Shown here one piece after another: positions 6,334 to 36,821 of a stretch of DNA of 40,582 nucleotides. A model generated the notes under the pieces. It had not been told where the DNA came from and made no database searches. It saw only the letters and a list, made by a program, of their open reading frames with translations. Numbering within the stretch: position 1 is the first letter of the stretch; every line of letters begins with the position of its first letter. Source of the stretch: Kipferlia bialata (taxonomy: Eukaryota); contig BDIP01000002.1 of the NCBI GenBank assembly GCA_003568945.1, positions 9,426 to 50,007 on the forward strand, written 5' to 3'. Both the position numbers and the translations under genes were made by a program.

Positions 6334-6552
6334 GTCACTGTAAGATAATGAGAGGCATGGAGATCATGTTGCATACATCGGTAGCAGATCCCATAGATTG
6401 ATTTCACAATTTAGTGACCTAGTGCGTCGCGATTGGAGGAGCATGTACCAATACTATAGCTTAGTTCTCCACACCCATTCCAGTTCTTGTTTGTATTCAC
6501 TGGACGCGATTTTCAAGAATAGTGTCTCTAGATTTATGTATAAGTAGTATTC

Positions 6553-9500
6553 CTAGTCTGTTCTCGTTTGTTGTGAATGGCATGTTATCTACTTTATGTT
6601 AGATCTGTCAGTATATCTCGAATGCATGCATTGTGTTATGTAACTCTACTCTAGTCTGTTCAGTTCTCGGTGGGTGTCAAGTCATCGGTAGCTATACATG
6701 TGCTTAGTCTGTCCTGTTCTCGTTTGTTGTGAAGGGCATGTTGACAGACCACCCCGGCATCAGGTTGGTGGGGCGCATCTCTCTGGAGAGTAAGAAAATA
6801 GTACCAAACACAATTGTATTGAAAGAGAGAGGTGTCAGACTGTACCTCACAAAGTCCTCTCTCCAGCCTAGGATGAAAGCCTCAATCAATGAGTCACACC
6901 GACGGGCCTAGGGGTAAGAGTAACTTGATGTGGAGATACATGATGTATACCCCTATCTCTGCTACCACACCTCTTCCGGTGTTTCGGTCACCTATCAGAG
7001 TGGGAACTGTTCCAGTTGTACTTTAACTACAATATATATATTAATATATAATATATATTATATTACTATAATCACTGTCTTTATCCTCTATCATATACCT
7101 CCACCGGTGTCACTGTCTCCCTTGGCAGTGGGGGTTGTGACAGTTGCACTATCACTGAATACATATATATGCAACATATATACTCTCTCATATACCTTTT
7201 CTGGTGTCAGTTTCCCCTGTCAGAGTGGGGGTGGTGACAGGTGAGCTATCACTATATACTATACATACACTATATATGTATATAGATAGTCCTACCTCTT
7301 CTGGTGTCACTGTCTCCCCTGTCAGAGTGGGGGTGGTACCTACTGTGCCCTCCTCTGACCCAGCCCAGATCTGGAATTCAGATTTTACTCAATACTCTTA
7401 ACACACGTAAAACTGTACAGTATTATCAAAATTCATATTATTTCTCCTAAATACCTCCACCATGTCCATGTATGTAGGATATGTCTCAAGGGTGTCAATA
7501 CATATATACACATTGTCATATACGCAATATACATCCATATAGTATATATATGCTGTATACACACAAATATCCACTGGTTACCTCCACCATTCCCATGCAT
7601 ATTGGACATGTCCCAAGGGTGTCAATAGGGGGGTGACCGAGGCCCTAGGGTCAGCAAGAGAGAGAGAGAGAGAGTGGTATTGAGAGAGAGAGAGAGAGAG
7701 AACGACAAGATATACATATATGAAGAGTATCTATAAATATACATACATACCTCGTGAATGAGGCACTGCATGTAGAGAGATCCGCGGGATAGCATGGGGT
7801 CGTTCGGCGTACGGGCCGGAAGGTAGTTGAGGATATGCAGCAGGGGATCTGATAGGATGGGTAGGGGAAGGGGGTCACATGCACTAGAGCCACATGGGGT
7901 GATGTCACTATCACCTACATCATCCCCTACATCTCTTATTCCCTCTTCTTGCTTCTCTCTCTCTCTCTCTTTCTCTGCCTCCTCTCTCTCTGCCTCCTCT
8001 CTCTCCTTCTTCTCTCTCTCCTGCACCCTCATGTATTCCCCATACATGCTCTGCACATCCGCTAGATTAGCAAGTAAGGCGTCAAGGTCCCCGAACTTGT
8101 CAAGGTGTGGATCATCCCATCCTGGGATGAGATACTATATTCACTTGACTCTGGGTATTCAGTACTCGTGTATACTGCAAGGAAGGTGACTGATGTTTAT
8201 ACCAACTGGCCACCTGATACTCACTCACGACTTTGCCTTGACAACACTTCTACTCAAAAATGTGTAGATAGTATGACACCCTATCTATACCAGGCATGTT
8301 ACCTGACACCCCCTCTTGGCACCCCCTTGCCTCGAGTATCCTGGTCTGGACATAGGCACAGAAGGGACTGCAGAGGTATCTGGAGTGAAATAGGTGTATA
8401 TATGCAGATACAGTGATAAATATACACGTAAATAGCCTGGACATAGTCACAGTAGGGACTGCAGAGGTATCTGAGGGTAGAAACATATATATGTATACAC
8501 TGAGAGAGAGTAAGAGGGGAATATATCCACCCAGGAATGAAAACTTACAAGTATTCGCCACAGAGACAGTAACATCAGCCCATGCCCTTACCTACACACG
8601 AGATGGTACATCTCCTCTATCCTGGCATCAGGAATCTGACTCTTGCATAGACCCTGTCTGCCCATCCTCTGCCTCAATATGGCACTGGAGTGACAGCCGG
8701 CCTGCATATAAGTACATATTAGCATACTAGTAGTATACACTATACTATACTTTTGAATACTATGATATATATATGCCCATCCTCCGCCTCGGGATCTGGA
8801 GTGACATCCTGCCTTAGAGTAAGAGACGTGTATATAATGATGATTCACCTTCATAATGTGTTCAATATATACTCTCACTCTTTGTCCTATAAGCATATTC
8901 GCACTGTGACCCACCTTCATATTGGGCGGGATGGCCTTAACAACAGCATCTCTCTGTCTTCTATATAATTGTGAACAATACAATCATTCTGTGTATTCTT
9001 ATATACAGAGTAACTGTGACCCACCTTCATATTGGGCGGGATGGCCTCTCCGATACCAAGGCCTGGGGTGAGAAACAATGACACCAATGCTACAAGGGAC
9101 TAATGGCCACATACCTTGAGGTGGGATGCTGTACTTTGCATCCACCACCCCTCTGTACCGCCCTGCCACATCCTCAGCCGAGTGGTGGCAGTGGTCACAC
9201 ACAGCTACTACCTATGATTAAAACTCTATAATGGATATAATATATATGGTATGATATAAACATGAGGGGAGAGATACACTGCCACATCCTCAGCAGAGTG
9301 GTGGCAGTGGTCACACACAGCTACGACCTAGTGTTAGACACTTAGAGAGCGGGGGAGAGAGAGATAGAGAGAAAGATATACATCCTCAGCAGAGTGGTGG
9401 CAGTGGTCATTGGTATTGATGATATATGTATCCACTTTGACGTACATCTGCTGAGTTATGGCTCTTGTAGCACGGGGGCATGTAGCGCCGGTACTCACTT

Positions 9501-10712
9501 GGGTAAGTCTGAAGTATATATAGATACCACACTTAATACATATATATATCTATATATTCATATATGATTTGTGTTTAGGGACTGATTAATACAGTATACA
9601 CTAACATACCGGGGCACGATGTGGTGCAGCGTCAGGAAGGTGAATACATATGATTAGCACATGTAGCAATATATAACAGAATGACTAGAACTAGCTAGAC
9701 CAGACATACCGAGGCACTATGTGGTGCAGTCTCAGGTAAGTATGATTGGCATATATAGCAGTGTGCAAGTGAATGTCCAGAACTAGATAAATACTAAACA
9801 TACCGGGGCACTATGTGGTGCAGTGTCAGGCCATGCTCCCTGTCTGCTCCGCACACCACACACTCCTCCTGGGGTGGGATACATATACGTATAAATGTAT
9901 ATATTAATATATTGATAGAGAGAGAGAGGGAGAGAGAGAGAATGTTCCCTGTCTGCCCCACATCAACACATTCCTCCTGGGGCAGCTATAGACAAACAAA
10001 TATACACAACATATATTAAGGGAGCGATACATGCTGACAGACATACGCATCATCAGTATGGTGGCATCCTGCCTCTCTGTCCTTTGTGAAGTATGTCTCG
10101 TCACTCTATATTCCGAGTATGAGCATACACAATACCAATATATCAACCCATACGAAGGCGCACACACACACTTATATATATATAAATACAATTGTCATCA
10201 TTTATACCTCCCTGTCCTTTGTGAAGTATGTCTCGTCTGTCCTCCCGTGGTGACCCATGCCTGGTATGAGAGGTGGAAATATGGGTAAATATACACATTA
10301 TAGTACATTGAACATGAGTACATGGTATTGCACTGTATGTATATCCGGTCACGGTGACCCATGCCTGACAGTGAGAGGTGGACAGAAGCTACAATATCTA
10401 TAATTATACAGAATGAGATTCCATACCAACAACTCTCATTTTTGAGTTCCAAGAGCTGATTGTGAATTCTTAAGCCTACCTCTTGGCCTGAACAATAGGT
10501 CTATCCTCTTCCTGTCTGTGTCACCCTCCTGATAGGTGGCCAGGCCCTTGTTGACATACCAGTCGGCACGGCGCCTGAAGGTAAGAATACACATTAATAC
10601 TAATGTATAAATATATAATAATATATATATACTGGTAAGCAATAGTGGCTTGGCCCTTGTTGACATACCAGTCGGCACGGCGCCTGTAAATAAGAACCAC
10701 ACACACATATAC

Positions 10713-10750
<38 letters not shown>

Positions 10751-10970
10751 GCTGATCATATTGCTGACATATCAATGCAGAGGGTGGGGGAGAGGGGGAA
10801 TACTTATAGCAGGTACAATAAATGTATCATACCTGCTGAGTGTACACAGAACCTTTCCCTCGTATGCCATCTGGATATTCTCATAGATAAGGACCTGGGG
10901 TCAAGAGAGAGAGAGAGAGAGAGAGACAGCGAGTAGTGGGTTGTTCTCATAGATGAGGACTGGGGTCAGA
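6553..10970 (-). repeat. Intronic and 3'-flanking echo copies of exon ends throughout the EXD2-like gene
   Basis: Copies at about 6553-6590, 6968-7010, 7095-7142, 7193-7238, 7452-7500, 8436-8475, 8772-8815, 8903-8937, 9280-9332, 9380-9410, 9605-9637, 9705-9736, 9942-9982, 10070-10103, 10352-10370, 10650-10688 and 10940-10970, each next to its source exon. Confidence 0.9.
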
Positions 10971-11188
10971 CAGGGAGGGGGAGAGAGAGGAAGAGAGAAA
11001 GACAGCGAGGGACATGGATCAATATATAGAGCGATTTGGATATGGGGAAAGTAGAGGGGGAGAACAAATGGTAAATGAGAGATAGAGAGAGAGGTACAGA
11101 GGGAGATGCGTAGGGTGAGAGACTGAGTGGCTGGTGAGAGTAGCAGGAACAGACGGAGGTCAGGTGGATAAGGAATTGTACTCAACAT

Positions 11189-11228
<40 letters not shown>

Positions 11229-11509
11229 TAACTAGTACCTTGTGGCAGTATCTGTGGTTGGACTGTGGTGCTGCATCGGAGGATGGGACTTCATGCTCAG
11301 TCTGACAGTGAGAGACAGACAATGATGATAGAGGAGAAGACATGGAAGAAACAGTTAGGGGGGGGGGGGGCGGTTAAGAAGTACATAATGCAACGACATG
11401 ACAGTATGTGTGTGGCTACCCTCACCTCCGCTGTCTCCACCCCTGTTCCCTCTGGTGCTGTTGCAGTGTCAGGAAGATCCATACCACTACCCTCCTGGGC
11501 CTTTGTCAT
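6704..11509 (-). CDS. EXD2-like HNH/zinc-binding domain protein lacking the 3'-5' exonuclease domain (16 exons, 481 aa)
   Basis: Exons 11509-11426, 11301-11239, 10894-10833, 10574-10480, 10260-10208, 9868-9804, 9497-9446, 9211-9115, 9062-9025, 8701-8592, 8379-8303, 8121-7751, 7644-7582, 7370-7296, 6907-6846 and 6782-6704 join in frame. Motifs YENIQM..GKVLCTLSRRRADWYVNKGLA, CVVCG..LHHIVPREYRRYMP..KSHNSADVVAVCDHCH and WREDFVREMRPTNLMPGWSV parallel the C-terminal half of EXD2 as I recall it (YDNC..WYLDKG; CVVCG..PHEYRKHFP..HNSHDV..CxxCH; WRQHF..MQPKHLP..WSV). Confidence 0.85.
11190..11226. repeat. (GA)n microsatellite, representative of many intronic (GA/CT)n and (TA)n tracts
   Basis: Directly visible. 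Others occur at 182-210, 10715-10750, 12352-12378, 12770-12793, 35625-35650 and 36788-36818. Confidence 0.95.
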
Positions 11510-11739
11510 ATAGCTACAACGTGGCAGGAAATAATAATTCCCGCACCAAGTATGTGGAAAGAGGTCTCTGCGTTTCTGATTCCGGTGTGGCCCAAATCGT
11601 TTGAAACGTGCTACTCAGACTGAGTGCTTTGCGGCCATCTCTCTTCTCACCCTCAAATGCCCTCATGCCAGTACCCAGCAGTCGCAGCTCGCACAGCAAT
11701 TTGCGCCCCCTAGCCTCTCATCTTCGATACCACCGCTAT
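11510..11739. promoter_or_regulatory. Putative bidirectional promoter region (230 bp)
   Basis: Lies between divergent start codons at 11509 (-) and 11740 (+) and lacks the microsatellites seen in introns. Position-based inference only. Confidence 0.45.
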
Positions 11740-12348
11740 ATGCGCATATCTCTTGTGCTGTGGTGTCTCATTCTGCTTCTGCTGGCCCTTCTGACTGCCG
11801 CACAGTCCCCTGGGCCACCAGATGCCTCTAAGACGCCTCTTTGGAGCCAGAAAGGGCGCCAACCAGCCCTCCGTGGCATTGTACGGGCACCAGAGGATAT
11901 GGCGATGCATCCTGCTGCCCATAGCCCTCCACCCTCCTCTCTTCCCACCCCTAAAGATGTGGATACTGATGTGAGTTCTGATGGTGTGCTGTTCCCTTCT
12001 GTGCAGGTCAAGGGTACTACGCTGGATATCATACCCAGCTGGCCTGTGACGGTGTACCCCTTACACGTCGAGGACAGTCAGGTATCAGTATATATATCAA
12101 TACATATCGATTGTCTTATCATCTCCTCTGAGTCCCAGGTTGGATATTCTCTTTCTCTTTCTCTGTCTCTCCCCTCCCACACACACACCGTATACTGATA
12201 ACCAGGTTGTGTTGAGGTTCTCTCTCCCACACACACACTTTATGTTTGTATATATGTGTCTATCTGATACCCATCTGGGAGCACTACCCCCCCTCCTCTC
12301 TTTGCTCAGTTTTGACACCAATGCATCTGATGGTATCTGGGAGCAATA

Positions 12349-12384
<36 letters not shown>

Positions 12385-15300
12385 CATTTTCGTATTCCCT
12401 GTCTCTATCCATCTCCACTAATAATCTAGGTCATCTTTACCTTTGACACCAATGCCTCAGACCTTATGGTATCTTGGGGCACTAACCCCCTCTCTCTCTT
12501 ACACTAGTCCTTCTATACTTTTGACACCAATGCCTCTGATGGTGTCTGGTACCAATCCCCCTCCTCTCACCCCTCTACCTCACTGTCTACTATCTACCTC
12601 AGTCTCTTACACTCAGCTGTTGTTCACCTTTGACACTGATGCCTCAGACGGTGTCTGGGAGCACTACCCCACCTACGACTACACCACCACTCTGACCATA
12701 CCCAGTGAGCCCACACTGAGTGTGTCAATATGCAGTCAGGTATATATGGATACATATGTATATGTACATGTATATATATATATATATATATATACACAAC
12801 TACGACTACACCACCACCCTGACCATACCCAGTGAGCCAACTGTGTCCATATCCATTTGTGACCAGGTATCTATGGGTATATGTGTATCTATGCATATCT
12901 ACATCCATAGTGTCTGCCACCGTTACCATACCATCTGTGTCCATAACGATATGTGACCAGCTATCAACCCCCCCCCCCATCTCTCTCTCAATCATTCCAA
13001 GTACTATACCCCCTCTCATCTAAGCTTATCATTTTAGCTTATCTCTTTCGGTATTCAAAGTCCGTTCCCTTATGCGTATATATCGATTCATCCATTCTAA
13101 TTGTCTTCTCCGCGGTATCCACAAGTTATGCATATACCTATGCTAGCGTTTTCCATTACTGGCACCGCCTTCATACCCACTCTCTCTCTCTCCCGCTCTC
13201 TCTTACCACAGTCCACCTCCGAGTGGACAGTATGTATATGTACATGTTCATATATTCACTACCATAGATATTCTCTATTATACTAATCCCAGGCCACTCT
13301 GAGTACACGGTGTACACCCATCCATATGATCCCCATTTCTCTCTCTCTCTCTCTCTGCCTCTAACTCTCCCTCACTCTCTTACCCTCAGTCCACCTCTGA
13401 GTGCACCGTGTCCACCCCTTCCCACGATGCCTCTATCCTGGACACATACTCCACCCCACTGCCCTATACAGTTACCCAGGGCTGGGTAGAGTGCACATTG
13501 ACTGTACAGGTACTATATATATATATGTATACACTAACACGCCTCTGTCCTGGACACATACTCCACCCATCTGCCATATGCCATATCCCAAGGATGGGTA
13601 GAGTGCACATTGACTGTACAGGTATGGGATATACACTAACATGCGTAAGTATATGTATATATATACCCCTCTGCCCTATGCCATATCCCAGGGATGGATA
13701 GAGTGCACACTCACAGTGCAGGTATGGGATATATATATGTATACGCTAACACGTATATATATACATATATATATATACCCCTCTGCCATATACCATATCC
13801 CAAGGATGGGTAGAGTGCACACTCACAGTGCAGGTATGGGATATATGTGTGTATATATATGTATATCGTATACTAGCCTAGATAACACTGGTAAACACAT
13901 GTGAATGTGTGCCAATCTCTCATGGCTGGATAGAGTGCATACTGACAGTGCAGGTATGAGAAACAAGCTATGCCCATAGATATATGTATACTCTCCTATG
14001 TATACAAGTGGAGTAATGTGTTTACATATATTTGTAATGTCTCACCCCAGGACTGTACAGTCGTGGTTCAGAATGTGTACGATACCCCTGATGTCACTGA
14101 GTACATAGGGGAGGTGTCCCTGTCCCTACCTGTCTATGTACATATGGACACGTTCCCACTCAGCCATGTGTCACTGTTCGGTAAGTGCATATTTATACTT
14201 AGTCTGATCTTTGGCATACAACACAAATATATACATATCCTGGTGACACTGACCAATTCCTGATACACCTGCAAGTAGTAGTGTATAGTCCAAAACCCTA
14301 CAGAGAACACTAACCCTCTCATCCCACCTAGACTACACCATATTAGTGTCATATATAATCGTGGTGTACGCTCAGTAACACTACTAGCATCATACCCCGT
14401 ACTACCCACAACCCCCCCCCCCTCACCCCAGACCTCCCCACCTCCATGTGCCCCGAGTCCTCTGTGAGTGTGTGTGGCAACGTGGCTGCCATAGGGTGTC
14501 CCTTCCAGTATGAGAGTGACGGTGTCACCAGAGACACATCATATCCAGGGGCTGTCTACATATACGCAAGGGAGAGCGAGATACACCCTTGGATTCAGAG
14601 TGAGTACTCGTCTCCCCTCACTGGGGATGCTCTCTATGGGACATCAGTCTCTCTCTACCAGGAGTCAGAGGGGATAGTGGAGCTGGCAGTCTCCATTCCA
14701 TCGCTAGACACTGTCTCGTTCTCTAGGTGGAGTGTAGATGGGGTTATTGTGACCTATCTCTCCCAGCAGCCAGTGAGTGTAGACCTTAAGCTGCCTGATA
14801 TAGTGGCCGAGGAGGACAAGACAGCTGCGAGAGACTACATGGTCCCACTACCAATGGTATGTAAATGTGTAATAGTTCACCAACAGAGACCTACTCCCAA
14901 CTATCTATATTGAGATGGAATCATTTACGTGGAATTGATCCCTCATCCTCAGGCAAGGAGTGAGCGGTTCTTACTCGTTGCCGACAAGAACAAGTCACGC
15001 CCAGGTAGCACAGTCAGTTGGAGTGGTATATCTTCTGTATTGTATTCGTAGTACATTGACTGACAGCAGGGAGAAGAAGGGGGAACATATACAACTCAGT
15101 GGAGCTTTGTGACATTGTGATATGTAAATTTCATCTCATTGTCTATGATTACTGGCAGTAGGAGTTTGGTACCAGTGAATATGTCTCTATTTATTCATTC
15201 CCTTGGTCTGACAGCAGGAGAGAAGAAGGGTGTGGTGCACTCTTTCTGGAAGGACTTAGGCACAGGTACGGGGATATACCATCGTATATACTCATTTTTG

Positions 15301-18300
15301 TTGTCAATATAAATCCCATTAAACGATACTTTGTCCCATTGTGTATCCTGTCCTGTGTATGTTGCACAGATACTCTGTACATCCAGTGAGTACACTACAT
15401 CCTATGTAATTATTAACTCTCAGGTGTTTGGTCCTACCACATGGCGATCTACGGTGCCACCGAGGGTGGGGTTACCTTTGGGGCAGGTATATACACGTAT
15501 TCCTTTCTAATCTTGTTATAGTTCTCTATGATTATAGAGAGCGTTCATACTCTATCTAGATCACCTTCCTCTACATCATTGTATGACCGCACGATGTGTG
15601 AACCTCAACCGTCTGGCCATTATTTGTATTTATATCAGAGTATATATATACATTAATATATATACTCTGGCCGACTGGTACTAATATTGTCAGGTGTGGC
15701 CATCAACCCCTCTGAGACCCATGTGGCAGTGAGTACCTACCTCACTGCTGACAGAGACACTGGCGAGAACACCTCAGTGTTCATGTTTGCGTACGATGAC
15801 TGGGATGAGTGGTGGAAGGACGGGGAGGTATCAGTGCACGGCTATGGGCCTCTGGATAGGCGGGTCATCAACGATGGGACTTCTTACAGGTATACACTGT
15901 GCCACATATACATCTTATAGTCCCAGCCTTGGGGGACTATTGCTTCTTCATATATATACTATCATCTACACATATACTATATTCTATATGTATACTCTTA
16001 CAATCAGGCACTCTGTTGCGATGACTGATGACACCCTAGTGATAGGCACCCCTGACATCGACCACTACTCATACTGGTGGGGACTGGCCACAGTGCTCAC
16101 TAAGGACACTATCAATGGGGACTGGACCTACCAGGGTCAGATCGAGGCCCCACTCTCTACATCATTCGGGTACCACGTCTCCGTGGCAGAGAGTGAGGAT
16201 GGGACTCCTCTGCTAGCCGTCTCTGACCCCATGTACGGCCCGATCAGTCTGAGTGATGCGAGTGTGCGTGTCTACCGTGTAGATTCCATTGTGGGTGAGG
16301 TTGAGGCCAGTGGGATAGAGGTCAGGATGGGGGGTGTAGCACCTGCCTTTGATGGACAGACTGTAGTAGATGGAGGGGCACATTCCATGGCTCAGTGGAC
16401 TAGTCTGGAGACAGGTAATACTATATATGGAAAATGTAGCATATACATGGATCTTTCTAGTGATTGAGTAGGTACATGTCAAGTCCATTCGTATCAACCA
16501 GGAGAGTACAGGTTAGTGTGCTCAGTTCGTTCTTACCCACAGGTCCCAGCTACATTCGTCCCCTCTCCCGTACGCATGTTGTCTCCTCCCCCTCCTCCGC
16601 CCATATCCACTGTGACCTGTACGATGACCTACACGATTCGTCCCAGGGTGATGTGTCTCTCGTGTATACCACCCCTTCCACCTCTACCGTACTCAGTACG
16701 GTCACTGGCCAGTTGGAGTTGGATCACTCCTTCTCTCTAGATGCAGGAGTAGACGACACTCTCTTCTTCCATGCTGTACCTGGTGATCACGAGTGGGAGG
16801 ATCACACACATAGTCTACTCTCTGTCACTGACAGTGACTACTACCTGCCAACCTATCTCAAGGTGGATATAGTAGCGGAGACAGATCTCCCCACTCTCCA
16901 CTACATCGAGGGCTTCCACCCCATCTTCAAGTACTCCACTGAGCTCTGCTTCTCTGTATCGGACGCTGACCATACCCCTGTACCCAACATCTGTTGCATG
17001 GGTCTGTCGGTGGATGGAGGTGACCCTATCACTGCTGTCTACGATGCAGACAGGGAGTGCTACTCCGTCTCTATGGCCGGTCCCCTGTCCCAGGGTAACG
17101 CCGATGTCTCCCTTGACGTGCCTCTGGGAGAGTATCAGGGCACAACACTCAGCACTACTGTATACGTGTATGGAGACGTCAATACGTTGTCTGTAGACGG
17201 TATCCCAGGGAGTGTTTCCACTGGTGAGATTATGGATGTGGAGGTGACACTCCGTGATGGTGACAGTATGGTGCTGCCTTATGACGATGGGTATCTGTGC
17301 TCTGTGTATGTCACAACTGATCCAGATGTAGAGTCTGTGAATGGAGGGGAGGGTACTACAGTGGTGGCTGTGTGGGATACTGCCGTGAGTCTGTTCAGAT
17401 CCAGTGTCACATCTACCTCCACACAGGCTGACAGGGTGGATGTGTCTGTAGAGTGCGTCTATGAAGATGGTGGACAGACGCAGACGTACTACAAGGATGC
17501 CTCCTATGAGATCAGTGTGAGAAAGGCAGAGGCCGATCCTGCCGCATGCTCAGTCTCAATGACATCTTCAGCCACCCTTCTTGATATATCTGCTACTGGG
17601 TCATACAACGTCACTGCTGGTACAGGGTTTGGGATTGATGTCGTCCTTGTTGATGAGAACGGCAACCCCATGCCAGACGCTGACCTAGACGTCATGGTGG
17701 GAGGTGGATCTCTCACTGCATCCTATGACTCTCCATCAGATACCTTCTCGTGTGTGGGAGAGACCGGAGACTACACCACTGCCAGGACATACCTTGTCAC
17801 ACTCAGTGTTGCATCAATCGGCATTGACGAGTTCGATCTGGTTATCCTACCAGAGGATACACCTAGTGACACTGAGTCAGACGTCACTGTCAATGGCAGT
17901 GCTGATGCAGTTGCAGGGGTCAATGCTAGTGTGACTGTCACCTTCAAGGACCGCTTCGGCAACACGATAGAGTACGACTCTGTGGTGGGTGGGATTGATG
18001 GCAGCACTGACCCATTGACCGGTGACTCTGGTACCTACTCTGGGTCACTGCCCACTCCCACGGTCAGTGGCAGTTACTCCTTAGAGATGGTCGGTACCCT
18101 GGATGGCACATCCTACACCATAACCCGTACTGTCTCTGTTCTAGCTGGGCCTGTCGTGTCTGGTACTGTGCTGACACCCTCCGTATTTGCCGCTACCGAG
18201 ACAACCACACTGACAGGCACTCTGGCAGATATGTATGATAACATACCCCTGTGTGGAGTAGGGTCCCTCACCCTCTCCTTCACAGACGACTACGCCACTT

Positions 18301-21300
18301 CGTCCAGCTGCACGTGCTCTGACAGTACATACATCTGTGATATAGTCCATGACACAGGGTGCACTGCTCCGTCAGAAGAGCAGGACATCTATGCATGGCT
18401 GGATGGAGAATACATTGGTTTCACATCAGTGACAGTAGAGACACACATTGTGGAGGCTGTGCCTAGTGGACCACTCTATGTTGAGACCCCTGAGTTGCAG
18501 TTTGTGCTTCTGGACACGTATGGTACTGAGATACCATCGCTTTCACCTCTGCTGGTGATGATTGATAGTGACGTCGTGGGATATGACTTCGATGATGGTC
18601 TGGACTGCTATATCGCCACAGTGCCAAGTGGTATAGGCCTCGGTGTCCACGACCTATCAGTTACAGTCAATGACCCCACGTACCCTCTGGCGATAGTGGT
18701 AGCAAGTGTCAATGTCTACGGCCCCTTGTTTGGTATCACTCCCGATGCCACATCCTACTCAACCGTTGCAGGGGAGTCACTGTCTCTGGGTTTCACCCTC
18801 ACTGATGATAATGGAGCACCCATTCCACACAGTGACGTCTACCAGTGCATTGTCACTGTGACAACAGATGGTGGGGTCACAGAGATCAACGCTGGGGATG
18901 GAACCGAATTCGACGCTGTTGCAGCGATTGAGAGTGGTGTATTCTCTGTTGATGTGATATCTGTCTCTTCCGAGGTGACAGAGATATCCTACCTAGCAGA
19001 GTGCTCTACGAGTACTGGCCCTCTCGATACTGTCAGTGGGACTGTGCCTCTAGATCTCAGTCCTGCTCATGCCTCTTCTGAGGAGTCCTATGTATTTGCC
19101 ACGTCAGGCTCCAACAGCCTTGAGAGCGGCATCCTAGACTCTGTCGCTGGTGAGGGTTTCAGTATCGCACTCTCTCTCTATGATGTGTACTCCAACAGTG
19201 TGGTGGTTGAGGCCGAGGACGTGGAGGTCACAGTGACAGCCAGTGACTCCTCTGAGACGCACCTCGGCGCATCACTCCTTGGTACCATGTACTCAATATG
19301 GGCCAGTGGTGCCCTCTTTACAGTGGCAGAGACTCTCTCTGTAGACATTGCTGTATCAGACCAGACTGCCTTCTCGATGTCCTTCACTGTCAATGTCTAT
19401 GCTGATGTATCTACCTATGAGGCTCTATCTACTGTCACTGTTGGGGATCTCCTGTCGGCGTTGGGGAGACCGTCACTGTCTCGACCTCATTGTTGGATGA
19501 GTACTCCAATGTGATCGTGTATGACTCTGTGACATGCCACCTCTACAGTGACCAGACTGCCCCTTGGCCCCTCTTCCTAGGGGAGGATGGTCTGTACACT
19601 GGGTCAGTTACTGCTCCCACTACCCCTGGGGACGTTGACGTTATAGTGGTTGGACATATGGGGGAGGCCACTTACTCCCTGACTGATAGCGTCTCAGTAG
19701 TACACGGTGATGTGTCTGACTACGTTATGGTAGAGACCAGCATCGATGCTGACACCACCACTACCATGCATGTTACCACAGTGGATTGCTTTGGCAACGT
19801 TGTCCCTCCCAATGGCGTTGATCTCCTCTGCAGCAGCCTGAACGACACCGACTTCCCCTCCTGGTCCTTCTGTACAGAGACAGACACTGCCTATGAGTGT
19901 GAGGTCACCCACGACATTGCACCAGAGCCAACTGCAACTGTACATATATTCTACGGTGGGATGACCATTGGGTCCTCTACTGTCGATGTCATTGTGCACC
20001 TGGATCAGGTGGTAGTGGATCCCCTCTTCAGCCTGTCACAGAACCTCCCCTTCACCATTCTCGACCAGTACGGAGATGATGTCGGTGATATTGGGACAGT
20101 GTCGGTGTCATTTGATGGCACTCTAGCTGGCATGGCCACCTTCGATCAGGACGAGTCCTGTTACATGGTAGATGTACCAGCAGCTATGCCTACCCTAGGA
20201 TCACACTCAATGTCAGTGACGGTGTCTGAGTCTAGCTACCCCACAGTGACCCTGTCTGAGACATTCAGTGTGTATGGACAGTTGGACTCGGTCATTGTGG
20301 ATGAAATGACCTTGCCTGTCACAGCCGGCGACCCAGTACTTGTCACAGTCTCTCTGGAGGACGCCAATGGCACCACCCTGTATGTCACTGATACTGTGTA
20401 CTCGTGTGTGGTATCAGTGGATAGTGATGTGGGAGTTCTGTCTCAGACCTCTGTCGATGCTGAGTGGGACGCCGCTGAAGAGTGGTTCTCAGCCGCTGTG
20501 ACATCTACATCCACCCTCTGTACCGAGTTACTTGTCACTGCTGAGTGTGTGGTGTCTGAAGGCGGCCAGACTGATACTGTCATTCTATCAGTCCCTTTCA
20601 CTGTTGTACCAGCTGCTGTTGACACTGAGTCATGCATTGTATCCCTTTTGGCCGATGCAGTAGCTGTTGGTGATGCAGTTGACACCTTCGATCTGACTGC
20701 TGGTTCCACTCTCTCTGTCTCTGTGACACTACTCGATGTGTACCTTAACCCCCTAACTACCTTGGATGACGTCTCGGTCGAGGCAGTGAAGTCTCTAGCC
20801 GTCTCTTTTGACTCTGATACACATGAGTACTCAACTGATGCATTCTGGACATCAGTGCAGTCTCTGGATGTTATTGTATCTTGTGCTGCGGGTGTCCTCA
20901 GAGAGTTTACAGTCAATGTCACACCTGACACTGCTGGTCCCATTGATACTGTTCTCTCTATCAATGGAGGTGTATCTGCTGTAGAAGTTGGATCCTCTGT
21001 GGATGTGAGTGCAGACTTCTCTGACGAGTTCGGCAATGTGATTGAGTTTGACTCTGTTACATGTGGGTTTGGCAGTGTAGCTGCAGCAACCAATGATATG
21101 GCATGGGCTAGCGGTAGTTACGCTGCATCTATGTCTGCTACCATAGTAGCACGGGATGTCGATGTCTACTTTGTAGGCACTGTGGGGGATGTCATTCACA
21201 CTGCTTCCATGACCCTGACTCTTGAGGCTGGAGGTCCAGACAACTGGTCCCTGATCACCCCATCCTACCTCAAGGCATCCAGTGTCACTTCCATAACTCT

Positions 21301-24300
21301 CAGGGTCAATGATGGGTATGGCAATGTCTTGACCAGTCCTGGGCTGCTGAGATTTGCTCTTGGTACTGATGACGCTGGTTCTGAGACTGCTATCTCTCAC
21401 AACACGACAGAGTGCGACAATGACGCCGATTCTTACTTATGTATCGTTGACTGCGATCTGGATCCTGCACCAGTTGCGTACCTCTATGTATGGTGTGATG
21501 ATGTTTTCATAGGGGTACAGGCTGTTAGTATGGTGCTGCACCTAGATAGTGTATCATTCCTTCCCCAATACACTGGGGCTGACACTGTCCGCTTCCATGT
21601 ACTCGATGACTATGGTGTGTCTGTGGTTGACTTGTCACCCGTCACACTGACCCATGAGGGTGTGACTGTCGATGCGACCTTTGACAGTGAGCACCAGTGG
21701 TATACTGCTCCTGCACCTTCGACATCTGGCCCAGGTGTCCACTCTGTCTCCGTATCAGTCTCAGACACCGACTATCCTGATCTTACTGTGTCTTCATCCG
21801 TCGCTGAGTACGGGCCAGTCTCTAGTATATCTGCCTCTGGTATTCCTGTCAGTGTAGTTGCTGGTGAGGAGATGTCAGTGTCGGTGGAGCTGCTGGATGG
21901 TGAGGGAGTATTGTTGCCTGTGGATGGGGCGTATGTCTGCACGGTCACTGTCACAACTGATGTCGGGGGTCATCTAGATGGGGGAGCTGGGACAGAGTAC
22001 ACCGCAGACTATGATCAGACACTCAACGTCTACACCGCCAGTGTCTCTTCGCTGTCGACAGAGGCTGTCGATGTGCAGATATCCGCAGAGTGTGTATCTG
22101 GTGTGCTATCTCCAGATATAGCAACTAGCTGTGTACCATTAACTGTGGAGGCCAGTGCTGTGGACCCAGCATCAACTGATGTACTCTTTGAGACCGGTGG
22201 AGTCAGTCTCGGTCTGAGTACTGACGCATTGACTGCTGGTGCTGCTCTGAGTGTGTCTGTTCTCCCCTATGATATGTATGGGAACGGTGTCTCCGGTAGC
22301 ACTTGCACCTCTGAGATCATGAATGCCCTGGGTGATATGATTGTAGAGTCCACTGCTGTGGAGGCCGATGATAATTCCTACACGATTGACATTGAGGCCC
22401 TTACACTCACAGAGGCAGGGGTATACGATATATATGTCACCGTGGATGGTGTGTCCATTGATGTATACACTCTTAGTGTTGTGTCAGAGAATGCCCCAAG
22501 TGAGGAGCTCTCGGCTGTGACTCTGGGTGGTGGTGCAACCAGTGTCACTGCAGGCTCTACAGTTGATGTCTCTGTAGCCTTTGTGGACACGTTTGGGAAC
22601 AGTATCGAGTACGACACAGTTGACGGTGCCTTCGCTGGTGGTGAGGCAGTACCCATGTCTACCATTGCTACTATTGGCGAGTACTCTGGATCCATAGTAG
22701 CACCCACACTCGCTGGAGATACAACTCTCACAGTGACTGGACACATTGGGGGAGTCACCTACTCTCTGGATATGGATCTGTCTGTATCGGCCTGTAGGGC
22801 GACACACATACACACCCTGGACTCCACTGGTATCACAGCTGCCGGTGTCACTACCCTGTCAGTCGAGGTCCATGACATATACAACAACGTGGTGGGTTGT
22901 GGTGCAGCTCTCCTTGTATCACTAGGGGATACCATGGGTTCGGCCTCTGAGTGTGTAGATAGTGGCTCCACATACACTTGTGATATCACCCATGATATCG
23001 ATCCATCATCAGACGTCTCTATCCACTCCTGGTTCGGAGGGGTGTACCTTGGTACCGCGACAGAGCCTGTGATTGTCAACCTAGATAGTGTTGTCACACT
23101 GCCAATACTCTCCACCTCGAGCACCCTACGGTTCAGTGTCTTTGATGTCTATGGTGTAAGCGTGTGTGACCTCACAAGTGTCAGTGTAACTTGTGAAGGT
23201 GTTTCTACAGATGCATGTTACGACTCTGATGCTGAGTGCTACACGACTCAGTTATCGATCGTATCCGGTGACAGCCCTCACTCTCTGACTCTGTATATTG
23301 CTGACGCCGCATACCCTGACGTCAACCTGACTACATCATTCACTGCCTATGGTCCACTGGATACCATCACATCGAGTGATATCACTACACTTGTCACTGC
23401 GGGAGAGGACTTTGATCTTACTCTCACTCTTCTGGACTCCGAGGGCACAACCCTTCCCCTTGACCCAGAGTATACATGCACAGTATCCATAACTACTGAT
23501 GCTGGTAGTATGACTGTCAATGGTGGACTTGGGTCAGTCTATGTTGCCACTCTTAGTGGCCCTGAGCACGTGTATACCAGTAGTGTGTCCTCAGTCTCCA
23601 GTGAGAGTGACTCTGTCCTTGTCACAGCTGATTGTATGTTTGCAGATATGGCAGACACTGTCACTGTGAGTGTACCACTCACAGTCCAGCCGAGTGAGGT
23701 TGATGCTTTCTCCAGTGGCTACACTGTGACATCTGAGGGTGTCGACCTAGTTGCTGGCAGTGACTCTCTCTACACGATAACAGCTGGCAGAGGGTGGGGT
23801 GTAGCTGTGACAGTGTGTGATGAGTATGGGAACCCTGTCAGTGATGGCTGTGTTGTCTCTGTATCTAGCACACCTGCCACAGAAGAGCCGTCACTTCTAG
23901 GGTCACAAGACGCACAAGTGTCTGGAGTAATATTCACCGTTGATCCTGCTGGATATACTCATGCTGAGACCCACACTGTTGAGCTAATGGGTAATGACCT
24001 CCTAATTGGTTCCTTTACACTCAATGTGGTCGCTGATATGACACCCAGTGACACAGAGTCTACTATATCAGTCAATGGTGGAGAGGTACTAGTTGCTGGA
24101 ACTGACGTCCCTGTGACTGCCGATATCCGTGACATGTATGGTAACTCCATCCAGTATGACAGTGTGACATGTGAGGTGGAGGGTGTGGATGGAAGCACCC
24201 TCCTAGTCTCAGATGGCGATGGGTCAGTGTCTGGAACACTATCCATGCCCACAACCGTGGGTGATGTCACATTGGATCTGGTTGGTATCTTTGGGGCCGA

Positions 24301-27300
24301 CAGATACACACTGTCTAGTACCCTAGAGACAGTTCCTAGTGTCGCTGCATATGCCGAAGTGAGTACCTCTACTCTATGGTCAGGGGAGGTGTCTACTGCA
24401 AGTGTCGTTGTCACTGACCAGTACAACAACCCAGTGGCACTTGGTACCACTCTCTCAGCCTCTCTCAGCGATGTTGTGGATACTGCGTCAGAGTGTATCT
24501 GGGTGGACACACAGTACGAGTGTTACGTGACTACACTGGCAGTACCTGGTACCACTGTTGACATATACCTCTGGCATGAGGGCACCTCACTGGGAGGTCA
24601 TACCCTAGACGTCATGGGGAGTATTGACTCGGTGGTAGTTAACCCTGTGTTTGAGTCCGATGAGAGCATTGAGCTGGTCCTCATGAATGCAAGTGGGGCT
24701 GAGATGTCGGTGGACTCTATCAGCGTTGCTGTGGACTCTGGTTACCCAATTGTGGTGACGTGTGATTCCGATTCTGCTTCGTGTAGTGTCCCACTTGCAC
24801 AGTCTCTATCAACTGGATCACACACTGTAGACGTCTCAGTAACCCAGGACGGCTACTCTGATGATGTCGTATCGGCAACCTTCAATGTCTTTGGAGGTAT
24901 TCATAGTGTCGAATCGACCCATCCGACTCTCACTTGTGACGCTGGGGAGGCGGCTACACTTGCTGTATCTCTGCTGGATACTGCCGGTTCCGTTCTACCC
25001 GCCGACTCCTCATACAAGTGCACTGTACAGGCAACAGTCATATCAAGTGACACAACAAGTGGTGAGAGTGTAGACCTGGAAGAGGACTCTGGCGTATACA
25101 GTGCATCCCTGACTCTGTTCTCAGTGGATGACACTAGCATTATGGTGGTTGCAGAGTGCGCTACTGAGTCTCAGAGGTTCACAGACGTGGTGTACCTGGA
25201 GATGCCGCTGGAAGTGACCCCTGGGGATCCGGACCCCTCAGAGTCTGTAGTGTGTCTACAATACCCTGACGGCGCATCCCACTACTGTCTGGATGTCAAT
25301 TCCCACAACGTCACTGCCGGGCAGGGTTTCAGTGTCATCACCCACCTACACGACATCTACGGTAACCACGTGACAAGTGAATACGCTGCTGTCCGTTTAC
25401 TCGTAGACGGGCTGGACAGTGTATCACTAGACACCGTCTATGACACCAATACACAGTCCTTCACACTCGACGTGCTGGGGGAAGACTACACGATCATCCA
25501 GCATCTTGAGGTATCAGTAATGGTGGGAGATATACCCATACGGGTGTTTGACTTGGACATTGTGCCTGAGACTAGTGCTAGTCTTGCAATGTCGACTGTC
25601 AGTGTCAATAGTGGTCAGGACGTTCTGGTGTCTGACAGTGTGTCAGTGTCAGTGGTTCCAAGGGACTCTTATGGCAACCTGATTCACTATGATAGAGTGT
25701 CAGCTGGGTTCCTAAAGAGATCTCTTGCCCATATGGAGCTGGCCTTTGACGGCACTGATACCTACTCGGGTACCCTCTCAGCGCCTCGTATTGCCGGAGA
25801 CATACCCCTCTATATGCACTGCTCTCTCGGCAACCACAGATCCGATCTGGAGGCCACTGTATCAATCCACGCTGGTGATGGGTCTACATTCTGTGTCCAG
25901 TCCCCCACTCATCTCATCGCAAGTACATTCAACGGTATCTCTGTCGCCATACTAGATGAGTATGGCAACGCAAGGGTGGGCGACCACACTCCTCTCTCTG
26001 TTGCATACACAGATGATGTCACAGCTGCTATCCCTTGCGCTGCTGGTGATGACACCTACTCCTGTCTGCTCCCATCGCCACCAGTCAATGTCAGTGTGGC
26101 TACTGTGTATGCCTGGTATAACTCCAGTGCCCTTGGTGAACACTCTATGCGGATCGTTGGAGCTACTCCTGACAGTGAGTACTCAATTGTCTCACCTAGT
26201 TCTGCAGTTGCAGGGTCGGCCGTCCAGGTCCACGTGTCTCTATTCGCCAATGGTGGTGTCAGGGTACTCAGTGGGAACTTGGAGCAAGACGTCTCTCTGC
26301 AGTGGGGAGAGTCGTCTTCAGACGCTGTGCCGGCTACGTATAGTGCCACCTCCCAGGCCTGGGTGTGTGGCCTTACAGCTCCAACAACCTCTGGGGCCCA
26401 GTCTCTCAACGTCTATCTGAATGGGACCCTCTTCCTGACTCATTCAGTGGAGGTAGAGGACATGGTGCCGGACGCCACTCGATCCACTATGTCTCCTTCC
26501 ATTGCACCCACTGACAGCGCCCAAACCTACACGATATCACTGCGGAATGACCTGGGATCCTCCATCAGAACCACCTCTACCACCGTCTCTGTCGGATGGG
26601 AGGATGGGACTCAGACCCTTGCTTCCCTTGACAGTCAGAGTGGTTCATACACTGTATCCCTACCGGCACCTGATACTGTTGGACCCTCAATACTGGAGGT
26701 ATACTGTGACGGAGCCTATCTGATGAGTCACACTGTTGTAGCCTTTGCGCCTGTTCTCTCGTTCGAGAGTGATCCAGTCACAGAGATCACTGATCACGCC
26801 GAGTATGGGTATGGTAATGTAGTGGCTACATCAGATAACTGGAAGGCAGTCTCTGCTCCCACTGACGGCCTAGTAGACAGAGGCGTCGTCTACTTCTACG
26901 CGGCGGGTACCACTGATGTATCACTCTCACAGGTGGTATATGCCGACCAGCCCTCGGAGAGCGGACTCTTTGGCTACGCGATGTGTCTGACAGAAGCAGA
27001 TGACGGGTCAGGTATCGCGTACATTGGGCACCCTGGTGTGGAAGCAGTGGAGGTCTACCAAGAGACTGACGGTGTATGGAACTACACGAGAACAGTTGAG
27101 GCACCAGATGGTACTGAGGGTGATGGGTTCGGTAGTAGTGTAGCATGTTCCGGAACCAGACTGCTAGTCGGTGCACCTAATACATACTCATCTCTGGTGT
27201 CGGAGTCTGGTGCTGCATTTATGTACTCATGCACTGATGGTGTGTGTGAGTATGCACAGAGGCTCCAGGCTAGTGTGCCTACTGCTGAGGCACACCTAGG

Positions 27301-28960
27301 GTCCAAGGTTGCTCTGTCTGGCGATGTTGCTGTACTGACAACATCTGAAGATACTGGCTCTGAGACTCTAGTGTATGAGTATGCTTCTGCGTTGTCCCAG
27401 TGGGAACTGTCTGCCTCAATACCCTATGGCGGTGGGGACATTGCCGTGTCCGATGGGATACTAGCCATAGCCTCGGCAGAGTTTGACAGTGGGTTTGGAG
27501 TCTTCTCTGCAGACACTGAGTGGGGGACAGTAGGCTATGTCTCTGAGGAGAGTGTCGATGAGTCCAGTCCCAGCCTTGACTACTCTTCAAAGAGTGTGAC
27601 TACCCAGACTACAACTCTATCCCTTGCAGGTGGTACCTTAGTCGTAGCGAGCAGTGACTCCTCACACGTCTCTGGTTCCGTTACTGCTTACACCCTTGAT
27701 GACTCCTCAGGTGTGTTTGTGGGAACCTCCCCCATTATTACCTCCACCCGTGCCCCAGCCTCTGTTTCCCTCGACAACAACGGTAACCTGGTCGTTGGTA
27801 GCTACTCTGCTGCTGGTTTTGGGTTGAGTCAGTTCAACCTGGCCACCCCTGCTGCTCTAGTCTTTGATGGGGCACAAGGTGCATATGTGCAGGGCACCCC
27901 CAATGTGGAGCTTAGCTACCACTTCATGGATACACTAGGGGGTAGTGTGCCCTTGAACGACGGTGTGTCACTAACTGTAGGGGATAGCTTGGTGAACGGA
28001 GTGAAGGACGGTTCGCTAGTGCGATACACATCTACAGTTGATATCCCTGTCACTGTGGGTCCCAACTCCATTGTGGCCAAGCCGGCCTCAGATGCTGATC
28101 TACTAGTAGGTGGTATGATGGTGACAGTAGGCCCTGCCTCTCCAGATACATCAGAGGTGCTAACAGACACAGCTGTAGCTGGCACTGCCACACCCCTAAG
28201 TGCAGTGCTCAAGTCAGCCTATGGGGATGTGAACGATATACCACAGGACGTGAGTATAGCATGGACCAACGAGGATGGCACAGTAACATCAGTAGCATCC
28301 ATTGACTCTGACACCGGTGAGTACACTGCAGTGCTGTCAGGTGGCACCAGGGCAGGTCTAGCCAGTGTAGTAGTGTCTGTTGGTGACGACCCAGTCTTCA
28401 TGACCAAGTCCATATCCATTCTCCCAGACTCCCCCCATCCAGCTTCATCCTCTGTCACTCTACCAGAGACCGTATCCTCTGATGCCACTGTACCCTTTGA
28501 CACACATGTCCTAGACCAGTATGGCAATGTTTGTGATGGCCGGTCTGTCACAGTCATGATGAACAGCATGGAGACAGCAGAGGCAGAGTGGAACGAGGAG
28601 ACACAGTCCTACGTCGCCATGGTGACCCTACCTACTGAGGGAGAGACCGACTTCCAGGTGCTAGTAGATGGGGAGGCCCTCCTCTCAGTCAATGTCTCTG
28701 TCGATGGGTATCCATTGGAGGCATACATTGCTGTGGGCATGCTGGGTATCGGCCTCTGTGGTCTATCCGTGGCATGGGTGTTCTCCAAGTGCTCAAGGAA
28801 GGACACCAAGCTCGAGCTCTTGAACTTCGAGCCAGATGTGACTGTGATGTCTGTTGTACAGCAGCCCAGGCATGCTGCATTCAACACCGACCCAAGGAAC
28901 CAGGGGCACGGACTGGGAAGAGGGTTCACATTTGATTACGAACTGAAGAATGCGAGCTAG
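11740..28960 (+). CDS. Giant type-I membrane adhesin-like protein (FG-GAP propellers plus filamin/invasin-like Ig repeats), about 4,774 aa, with one -1 frameshift near 19445
   Basis: Signal peptide MRISLVLWCLILLLLALLTAA. Exons 11740-12081, 12617-12739, 13390-13509, 14051-14180, 14432-14856, 14953-15004, 15218-15265, 15424-15486, 15694-15889, 16008-16414 and 16543-28960 are phase-consistent. The ORF-track entries 16464-19514 and 19490-28960 are consecutive parts of one repeat array. It has recurrent D-x-[YF]-G-N motifs, FG-GAP blades (FGYHVSV..LAVSDP; GFGSSVACSGTRLLVGAP), a TM helix at 28721-28783 and a ~58-aa tail. Confidence 0.88.
12255..13960 (+). repeat. Intronic tandem 'echo' copies of exon ends plus splice sites in introns 1-3 of the giant gene
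   Basis: The exon-2 start is echoed at ~12262, ~12300, ~12430 and ~12510, and its end at ~12798-12866 and ~12918-12960. The exon-3 start is echoed at ~13205 and ~13290. Its end (..GAGTGCACATTGACTGTACAG|GT) is echoed four times, ending at ~13621, 13721, 13833 and 13953. Confidence 0.9.
16900..26150 (+). repeat. Six diverged coding super-repeats of about 1,540 bp (~513 aa), each with about five Ig-like modules
   Basis: Homologous anchors AEADPAACSV (~17530), AHASSEESYV (~19060), AAVDTESCIV (~20610), SAVDPASTDV (~22150), SEVDAFSSGY (~23690) and GDPDPSESVV (~25220). Each is followed by 'AG..V...D.yGN' and 'D.fGN.I.YDSV'. Boundaries are approximate. Confidence 0.8.
26760..27840 (+). other. Second FG-GAP (integrin-alpha-type) beta-propeller domain within the giant protein
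   Basis: Blades YGYGNVVATS..AVSAP..GVVYFY, LFGYAMCL..YIGHP..VEVY, GFGSSVACSG..LVGAP..GAAFMY and HLGSKVALSG. Confidence 0.75.

Positions 28961-36784: not shown

Positions 36785-36821
<37 letters not shown>

What the first reader, a model, noticed from the sequence alone, without database searches (positions are those of the whole stretch)
6553..14050. 'Exon echoes': introns filled with tandem copies of the neighbouring exon end plus its splice site
Seen: about 17 echoes in the EXD2-like gene and about 12 in the first three introns of the giant gene, each roughly 20-85 nt. Donor-side echoes lie downstream of the exon and usually keep ...AG|GT. Acceptor-side echoes lie upstream and usually keep YAG|. 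Up to four are stacked in one intron, often separated by (TA)n or (CT)n spacers. Inference: a recurrent local duplication process centred on exon-intron junctions builds much of the intron length and leaves decoy splice sites that the spliceosome must ignore or use. It occurs in a housekeeping-type gene and in a surface gene, so it looks genome-wide. I know of no described system of this form.
Basis: partly seen in the sequence, partly recalled or inferred. Interest (0 to 1): 0.88.

Follow-up and report, generated by a model that had tools for sequence, protein, structure and literature searches.

The report
Retired exon ends stacked in introns
In two neighbouring genes of the free-living protist Kipferlia bialata, half or more of the intron length consists of ~110-base head-to-tail copies of the exon-intron borders, and because these copies differ from the working exon mostly at silent positions they are likely leftovers of DNA repair between diverged working versions of the same gene.

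Summary
The echoes are real: 16 in 10 of 15 introns of an EXD2-like HNH gene (KIPB_000033), 2 behind its stop codon, 13 in a giant surface-protein gene. Each belongs to a ~107-nt head-to-tail unit (exon end plus intron part). Read depth at one echo shows a true two-copy repeat. They are not uniformly genome-wide: 14 of 25 introns here, 2 of 45 in the window's other genes. Centring on junctions does not exceed what gene geometry plus survival predicts. New here: exon-echo differences are 47 of 89 synonymous (35 expected if a neutral copy sits beside a constrained exon, P 0.006-0.03); echo splice signals differ from the true ones yet stay consensus-like; intron halves are nearly saturated; using an echo site gives a frameshift or stop in 25 of 27 cases. 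Best reading (0.5): copies came from diverged working alleles or homeologs through aborted homologous repair, and the displaced exon ends survive because they are spliced out. No second allele and no RNA were seen. The scan noted junction-spanning duplications before in a sea-urchin gene; human F7 intron 7 is the closest published case.

The parts
6704..11509 (-). Gene A, KIPB_000033: 16 exons (11509-11426, 11301-11239, 10894-10833, 10574-10480, 10260-10208, 9868-9804, 9497-9446, 9211-9115, 9062-9025, 8701-8592, 8379-8303, 8121-7751, 7644-7582, 7370-7296, 6907-6846, 6782-6704); HNH-type protein related to the C-terminal half of EXD2-like nucleases
10944..10960 (-). acceptor-side echo of exon 3 start (A intron 2)
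10645..10686 (-). acceptor-side echo of exon 4 start (A intron 3)
10353..10367 (-). acceptor-side echo of exon 5 start (A intron 4)
10072..10102 (-). donor-side echo of exon 5 end, GT changed to GC (A intron 5)
9942..9979 (-). acceptor-side echo of exon 6 start (A intron 5): 6 synonymous and 0 non-synonymous differences, one 1-nt deletion
9708..9736 (-). donor-side echo 1 of exon 6 end (A intron 6)
9608..9636 (-). donor-side echo 2 of exon 6 end (A intron 6)
9380..9409 (-). partial acceptor-side echo of exon 8 start, junction lost (A intron 7)
9279..9330 (-). acceptor-side echo of exon 8 start (A intron 7)
8903..8937 (-). donor-side echo of exon 9 end: 35 of 35 identical (23 exon + 12 intron bases); two-copy depth in a DNA run
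8774..8814 (-). acceptor-side echo of exon 10 start (A intron 9)
8437..8473 (-). acceptor-side echo of exon 11 start (A intron 10)
7453..7500 (-). donor-side echo of exon 13 end (A intron 13)
7194..7235 (-). donor-side echo 1 of exon 14 end (A intron 14)
7097..7138 (-). donor-side echo 2 of exon 14 end
6969..7004 (-). donor-side echo 3 of exon 14 end
6652..6681 (-). echo of the last codons and stop of gene A in the 3' flank (no splice site involved)
6558..6586 (-). second echo of the last codons of gene A in the 3' flank
11740..28960 (+). Gene B, giant predicted surface protein with FG-GAP and invasin-D3-like repeats; my exon model 11740-12081, 12617-12739, 13390-13509, 14051-14180, 14432-14856, 14953-15004, 15215-15265, 15424-15486, 15694-15889, 16008-16414, 16543 onward
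   Evidence: (no stop in the first 760 codons); public model not retrieved
12274..12565 (+). four acceptor-side echoes of B exon 2 start (12274-12294 partial, 12302-12348, 12436-12488, 12517-12565)
12797..12965 (+). two donor-side echoes of B exon 2 end (12797-12871, 12931-12965)
13209..13319 (+). two acceptor-side echoes of B exon 3 start (13209-13231, 13290-13319)
13541..13955 (+). four donor-side echoes of B exon 3 end (13541-13623, 13665-13723, 13777-13835, 13921-13955); mosaic array, period 100-120
15064..15081 (+). acceptor-side echo of B exon 7 start (outside the finding)
36817..36844 (+). donor-side echo in an unrelated gene (outside the finding)
37353..37494 (+). acceptor-side echoes in the same unrelated gene (outside the finding)

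Best explanation
The echoes are one half of ~107-nt head-to-tail duplications that span one border between coding and non-coding DNA, and they were likely made when a DNA break in an exon was repaired from a diverged working copy of the same gene (another allele or a homeolog) and the repair was aborted and end-joined. Steps: (1, inferred) only exons are similar enough between such copies for strand invasion; (2, inferred) synthesis runs about 110 nt, through the exon end into the other copy's intron, cannot re-anneal, and is joined to the other broken end; (3, shown) the product is exon end, part of an intron, second exon end, full intron, on the donor side, and the mirror image on the acceptor side; (4, inferred) the copy that touches the rest of the exon stays in use, the displaced one is a retired exon end with a once-working splice site; (5, inferred) it survives because the spliceosome pairs the sites nearest across each exon and cuts the echo out with the intron; (6, shown) it then decays a little at random, and stacked units exchange sequence with each other and with the exon.
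For: Two kinds of divergence are layered. Exon-echo differences: 24 of 104 four-fold sites against 25 of 411 zero-fold sites, ratio 3.8, bootstrap over the 17 junction families 2.4-7.0; 47 of 89 unique differences synonymous against 22.5 expected at equal rates and 35 if the exon's silent sites also move (P 0.0055), P 0.007 and 0.019 with context matching and at most 0.033 when any family is left out. Echoes also differ from each other at 15 of 41 four-fold against 18 of 141 zero-fold sites. The 42 non-synonymous differences look random (BLOSUM P 0.71, 2 stops), with 6 of 7 indels out of frame: decay after retirement. Donor echoes show the same bias (24 of 48) although all 14 lie behind a stop or frameshift, so it is not present translation. 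Splice signals of echoes differ from the true ones at 37 of 70 donor and 84 of 143 acceptor positions yet score far above random decay. Intron halves are at 55% identity, which simulation places near 0.8 substitutions per site, far beyond the 0.13 expected from echo decay alone. Echoes at the stop codon show that the end of conserved sequence, not a splice site, is what matters. The B intron 3 array is mosaic: nearest echo equals the exon over the last 15 nt (0 differences, 4 to the others) but groups with echo 3 upstream. Tandem duplications from failed synthesis-dependent strand annealing plus end-joining, 100 bp-10 kb, are shown in C. elegans (PMC8654963, abstract and section 12). Metamonads lack Ku-dependent end-joining and Fornicata have two Dmc1 and no Rad51A (PMC8516963, passages); Dmc1 recombines mismatched DNA (PMC11514202, start of abstract in search listing).
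Against: No second allele or paralog was seen: one search returned only the protein itself and no relative above 50% identity (both weak for this purpose), and the one place with informative depth looks homozygous. The excess over the twofold ceiling is modest (P 0.006-0.03) and rests on 89 differences in 17 families from two linked genes. Stacked echoes are not independent, and part of the acceptor-signal result comes from one-base shifts. In the two introns tested, the donor-side and acceptor-side spacers do not match each other (scores 20 and 14, within the null range), so they do not come from one donor haplotype. Only 4 of 27 intron halves are singly significant. The model needs silent divergence of about 0.15 between the copies and does not explain why the echoes cluster in this 8 kb or why the unit length is so narrow (107 +- 17, range 67-148, n 28).
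Confidence: 0.5

Rival explanations
1. Ordinary same-chromatid tandem duplications in a local hotspot. Those that span one junction survive; the AT- and CT-rich intron halves are scrambled fast by slippage; the exon halves are refreshed now and then by conversion from the exon.
For: Geometry alone makes 84% of tolerated 107-nt duplications one-junction (58% against 11% intron-internal). Conversion-like tracts exist: 35 of 35 identity at 8903-8937 with 63% beyond it and the mosaic array. Intron halves in the B intron 3 array differ largely in TA-run length. Human F7 intron 7 is of this kind (PMC1557585, abstract).
Against: Predicts at most a twofold excess at silent sites; 3.8 is seen. Predicts decayed splice signals where the echo differs from the true site; they stay consensus-like. 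No young unit identical over both halves was found among 27. If the refreshing exon comes from another allele this rival merges with the best explanation.
Confidence: 0.27
2. The echoes are in use now: as alternative splice sites or micro-exons that give protein variants, or as a store of variants that is copied back into the exon.
For: Splice signals are often as strong as the true ones; synonymous bias; a gene finder trained on these genes took two echoes as in-frame micro-exons; several echoes read as plausible peptide variants; gene B is a predicted surface protein.
Against: Using the echo site in place of the true one gives a frameshift or stop in 25 of 27 cases; echoes hold 2 stops and out-of-frame indels, and their replacements are not conservative; nine distant homologs align to the spliced protein with no repeated motif at echo positions; the public model uses the true sites.
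Confidence: 0.1
3. A process tied to splicing (for example R-loops or spliceosome-linked breaks) aims duplications at exon-intron junctions.
For: All intronic echoes derive from the adjacent exon end, and no purely intronic or intergenic duplication rose above the null.
Against: Survival and geometry predict most of this (16 of 16 at 84% each has P about 0.06); two echoes lie at the stop codon; 43 of 45 introns elsewhere in the window have none; it does not explain the silent-site bias.
Confidence: 0.06
4. Old duplicates held as back-ups: deletions between the repeats swap an echo into the gene often enough that echoes with broken codons or splice sites are selected against indirectly.
For: Would give conserved zero-fold sites, consensus-like splice signals and saturated intron interiors; repair in this lineage is thought to rest on homology (PMC8516963, passages).
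Against: A swap rate high enough to select would also delete the arrays before their introns could diverge this far (inference); stops and frameshifts are present at about the neutral share.
Confidence: 0.05
5. Assembly artefact: two diverged haplotypes stitched in tandem from short reads.
For: The published K. bialata assembly used short reads only (PMC5874029, section 7); unit length is near a short-read length; haplotype-like divergence is what the echoes show.
Against: In DNA run X1 the 35-nt repeat is a separate contig at depth 900 and a 135-nt contig at depth 457 runs from one copy to the other with no difference: a real loop at single-copy depth, not a bubble at half depth. X1 holds 0.93 of 813 sampled 31-letter words of 6500-14300, more than could be held if the roughly 60 unit borders were invented. 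X1 may be the sample the window came from, so it is a second assembly, not a second sample; only 7 records were laid.
Confidence: 0.02

Closest known systems
Human F7 intron 7 (IVS7) 37-bp minisatellite (PMC1557585, abstract and outline read)
   Same: First repeat unit spans the exon-intron border; downstream units carry functional but silent donor sites; the most upstream site is used.
   Different: One locus, donor side only, identical sites. Here about 30 units at 17 junctions of two genes, donor and acceptor side and stop codon, ~107 nt, with exon halves diverged at silent sites and intron halves nearly saturated.
Tandem duplications from failed SDSA plus polymerase-theta end-joining in C. 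elegans helq-1 mutants (PMC8654963, abstract and section 12 read)
   Same: Head-to-tail duplication of the stretch copied during aborted homologous repair; lower size limit about 100 bp.
   Different: There the copies are identical at birth and the median is about 1 kb; here the template is inferred to be a diverged homolog and sizes are 67-148 nt. Microhomology and enzyme dependence were not tested.
Intron gain by tandem duplication of a proto-splice site, and internal gene duplication (PMC2891723 abstract read; PMC4974935 search listing; Gao and Lynch 2009 seen only as a reference line in PMC3488318, content recalled)
   Same: Short intragenic duplication, one copy made intronic.
   Different: No new intron position arises; an existing junction is duplicated and the existing intron grows.
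Tandem exon duplication with mutually exclusive splicing (recalled; SCN-alpha exon 5 copies in search listing)
   Same: Exon-derived copies with silent-site bias inside introns.
   Different: Echoes are half exons with one splice site, always on the same side, mostly out of frame.
Introner elements (PMC9860276, search listing)
   Same: Many introns altered by one recurring process.
   Different: Introns here are not a repeat family; best cross-intron score 18 among 300 pairs.

Membership tests
Junction-spanning tandem repeat (F7 IVS7 type) | first unit spans the exon-intron border, later units lie in the intron | tested here: met
Junction-spanning tandem repeat (F7 IVS7 type) | units near-identical along their whole length | tested here: not met
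   exon halves 79%, intron halves 55%; Tandem Repeats Finder reports only the B intron 3 array
Junction-spanning tandem repeat (F7 IVS7 type) | spare sites stay silent in RNA | not testable with these tools
   no junction reads available
Aborted SDSA plus end-joining duplication | direct head-to-tail copy of 100 bp or more | tested here: met
   unit 107 +- 17 nt, at the lower edge
Aborted SDSA plus end-joining duplication | microhomology or templated insertion at the new joint | not tested
   joints are too decayed to place exactly
Aborted SDSA plus end-joining duplication | dependence on polymerase theta; identity of the template | not testable with these tools
   template inferred from silent-site bias
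Intron gain by tandem duplication of a proto-splice site | a new intron whose ends are copies of the flanking exon sequence, directly at its borders | tested here: not met
   echoes lie inside the intron, separated from both borders by 24-135 nt of intron-type sequence
Mutually exclusive tandem exons | whole exon copied with both splice sites, frame kept | tested here: not met
   partial copies, 0 of 18 wrong-side hits; 6 of 7 indels out of frame
Introner elements | introns of different genes form one repeat family | tested here: not met
Recursive splicing (AG|GT ratchet points) | branch point and pyrimidines before an AG|GT inside the intron | tested here: inconclusive
   10 of 14 donor echoes have AG|GT but exon-derived sequence before it; 2 of 13 acceptor echoes begin with GT; no RNA

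The most novel reading that the evidence does not exclude
Kipferlia introns are an archive of retired alleles: in a lineage without Rad51 and Ku, Dmc1-driven repair between highly diverged homologs repeatedly replaces exon ends piece by piece and pushes the old ends, with their splice sites, into the introns, in tracts across the genome. One assembly would then record past allelic diversity and sex or hybridisation, and the long tail of intron lengths would be a by-product of inter-homolog repair; a short-intron protist would have to splice by exon definition to survive it.
Probability: 0.3. Interest if true: 0.8.

Novelty: new variant of a known kind. Interest (0 to 1): 0.58.

Why it matters
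It gives a concrete, testable route by which introns lengthen: here 16 of the 19 introns of 210 nt or more carry echoes. If the copies come from diverged alleles, a single genome holds evidence for recombination between homologs in a metamonad whose ploidy and sex are unknown, and links its odd repair kit to gene structure. Either way these genes are a natural test of splice-site choice: strong spare donors and acceptors stand about 100 nt from the true ones in introns short enough that intron definition would be expected to pick the wrong pair. The echoes can also mislead gene finders.

Tried and rejected
No whole genome is held, so nothing was tested beyond the 40.6 kb window. Sequencing runs: no RNA holder listed; run X2 (RNA only by guess, share 0.20) laid 0 records on 8030-9520, which is no evidence either way; X1 covered only 7 of 30 bins there. 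The metagenome scan for relatives got no answer from the machine. The public model of gene B was not retrieved; exon models of B and of the other genes are mine and may miss exons, which would lower sensitivity in the 45 control introns, although the model-free scans agree. PDB sequence search gave nothing for gene A. Rejected: copying from spliced mRNA (echoes continue into intron sequence, not into the next exon); introner family; whole-exon duplication; base or neighbour composition as cause of the silent-site bias; one donor haplotype for both spacers of an intron. Literature: ten searches found no paper on this pattern in Kipferlia or any protist; the genome paper has 0 occurrences of 'duplication' and does not discuss repeats in introns in the passages shown; its supplements were not read; Gao and Lynch 2009 is not held and most subscription papers are not searched.
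Full report
Setting. The window is from the free-living fornicate Kipferlia bialata: one exon retrieved the public protein KIPB_000033 at 100% identity, and my 16-exon model on the minus strand (11509-6704) translates to it letter for letter with 15 GT-AG introns. Its relatives are EXD2-like proteins, of which it has only the C-terminal HNH-type half. Head to head with it starts a giant predicted surface-protein gene (gene B, from 11740), whose first 11 exons I modelled by hand with no stop in 760 codons; its public model was not retrieved. The genome paper reports 124,912 introns, a short-read assembly and transcript-guided gene models, and says nothing on duplications in the passages and section read (PMC5874029).

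Exon ends aligned to their own introns gave 16 echoes in 10 of 15 introns of gene A, 11 in B introns 1-3 and 1 in B intron 6; a model-free scan added one more in B intron 2 and two behind the stop codon of A. Non-adjacent introns reached score 24 in 1.1% and 34 in 0 of 1108 tests; local repeats scoring 16 or more were 37 against 0 in 6 shuffles. Echoes always derive from the adjacent exon end; 0 of 18 wrong-side controls scored. GT is kept in 12 of 14 donor echoes and AG in 12 of 13 acceptor echoes as scored, the miss being a one-base offset.

They are in the DNA. Laid on 8030-9520, DNA run X1 gave the 35-nt exact repeat as its own contig at depth 900 and a 135-nt contig at depth 457 running from one copy to the other without a difference. 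That is a two-copy tandem repeat at single-copy depth, not a haplotype bubble. Only 7 records were laid, so this is one echo; X1 also holds 0.93 of 813 sampled words of the whole region. X1 may be the window's own sample.

Anatomy. Each echo belongs to a head-to-tail unit of 107 +- 17 nt (67-148, n 28) made of an exon part and an intron part. Exon parts are 79% identical to the exon, many above 90%; intron parts are 55% identical to the stretch beside the neighbouring junction, against 48% for unrelated introns (4 of 27 singly significant, combined P 0.0014). Simulation puts 55% near 0.8 substitutions per site. Units make up 50% of intron length in A and 66% in B introns 1-3 (one intron left only 22 nt after subtraction, so the figure is approximate). 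Where an intron has both kinds, the middle is a complete second version of the junction pair: exon end, 96- or 102-nt intron, exon start.

Extent. With models from a small gene finder trained on A and B, 2 of 45 introns in the other genes have echoes against 14 of 25 in A and B (P 2e-6); the model-free scans agree. The pattern recurs at 36.8-37.5 kb but is patchy. Centring on junctions is largely geometry: 58% of random 107-nt windows in the collapsed gene A span one junction and 11% lie wholly in an intron, so 84% of tolerated duplications would be one-junction; 16 of 16 has P about 0.06 (and arithmetic). Two echoes at the stop codon involve no splice site.

The unexpected result. A neutral copy beside a constrained exon can differ at silent sites at most twice as often as at replacement sites. 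Counting one echo per site, 24 of 104 four-fold and 25 of 411 zero-fold sites differ (ratio 3.8, family bootstrap 2.4-7.0, P 0.019 against 2), for each of the four bases. Of 89 unique differences 47 are synonymous, against 22.5 at equal rates and 35 under the twofold model (P 0.0055); context-matched nulls give P 0.007 and 0.019, and dropping any one of 17 families at most 0.033. One echo has 6 synonymous and 0 replacement differences. The replacements that exist look random, with 2 stops, and 6 of 7 indels break the frame. Donor echoes share the bias (24 of 48) though none of 14 can be translated in place; overall 25 of 27 echo sites would give a frameshift or stop. Echo splice signals differ from the true ones at about half of the positions yet score well above random decay under a matrix trained on 55 other introns (two of those, in the gene at 36.5-37.9 kb, bear echoes; stacked echoes are not independent and one-base shifts inflate the acceptor test). 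So both halves of a unit diverged mostly while each was a working exon end with a working splice site, and decayed only slightly afterwards (about 0.06 per site).

Mechanism. The simplest source of a second working version is another allele or homeolog. A break in an exon, strand invasion into the diverged copy (possible only in exons), about 110 nt of synthesis into its intron, failure to re-anneal and end-joining give exactly this layout. Aborted synthesis followed by end-joining is known from Drosophila (PMC8951532, passages) and yields tandem duplications in C. elegans (PMC8654963, section 12). Metamonads lack Ku and Fornicata have two Dmc1 and no Rad51A (PMC8516963, passages); Dmc1 can recombine mismatched DNA (PMC11514202 and PMC6719624, search listing only). 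These steps are inferred. A variant in which old duplicates are refreshed from other alleles cannot be told apart here; exchange among units is shown by the mosaic B intron 3 array and the 35-nt perfect tract. Survival needs the spliceosome to pair the sites nearest across each exon; intron definition (described in PMC3488318, passages) would pick the innermost pair and wreck the frame. Against the model: no second allele or paralog was found, the two spacers of one intron do not match, the statistical margin is modest, and the clustering is unexplained.

Comparison and verdict. Intron gain by duplication, mutually exclusive exons and introners fail a defining test each. Ten paper searches found no description of this pattern in a protist. 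The structure is a new variant of a known kind, at unusual density and on both sides of exons; the signature of past function in the copies is what is new. Interest 0.58; the boldest reading, introns as an archive of retired alleles, has probability 0.3 and would merit 0.8.

Noticed in passing
window 19421-19514 (+): Gene B changes frame here: a 1016-codon and a 3179-codon open frame overlap, at a 20-nt two-copy repeat (19427-19467) with a short G run. Sequence error, small intron or a broken gene.
   Followed up: no
window 6704-11509 (-): Gene A matches only the C-terminal HNH-type half of EXD2-like proteins: 8 of 10 homologs scanned carry a 3'-5' exonuclease domain that gene A lacks; many homologs of 230-300 residues seem to lack it too.
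   Followed up: partly
window 10669-10683 and 9286-9327 (-): A simple gene finder took these two echoes as in-frame micro-exons: a risk for automatic annotation and the best candidates for real echo use.
   Followed up: partly
all introns of the window: Acceptors follow a tight pattern with a branch-point-like CTYAC a few bases before CAG, recalling the fused branch point and acceptor of Giardia and Trichomonas introns (recalled).
   Followed up: no
window 15212-15218 (+): Tandem CAGCAG acceptor at B exon 7, repeated in its echo at 15064-15070.
   Followed up: no
window 39003-39147 (+): Weak 18-nt repeat at offset 127 (score 13, within the null range) in a long predicted intron: possibly an old acceptor-side echo of an exon my model missed.
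   Followed up: no
window 11509-11740: Genes A and B are head to head, 230 nt apart; the echo-rich zone surrounds this shared upstream region, reaching 5 kb into A and 2.3 kb into B.
   Followed up: no
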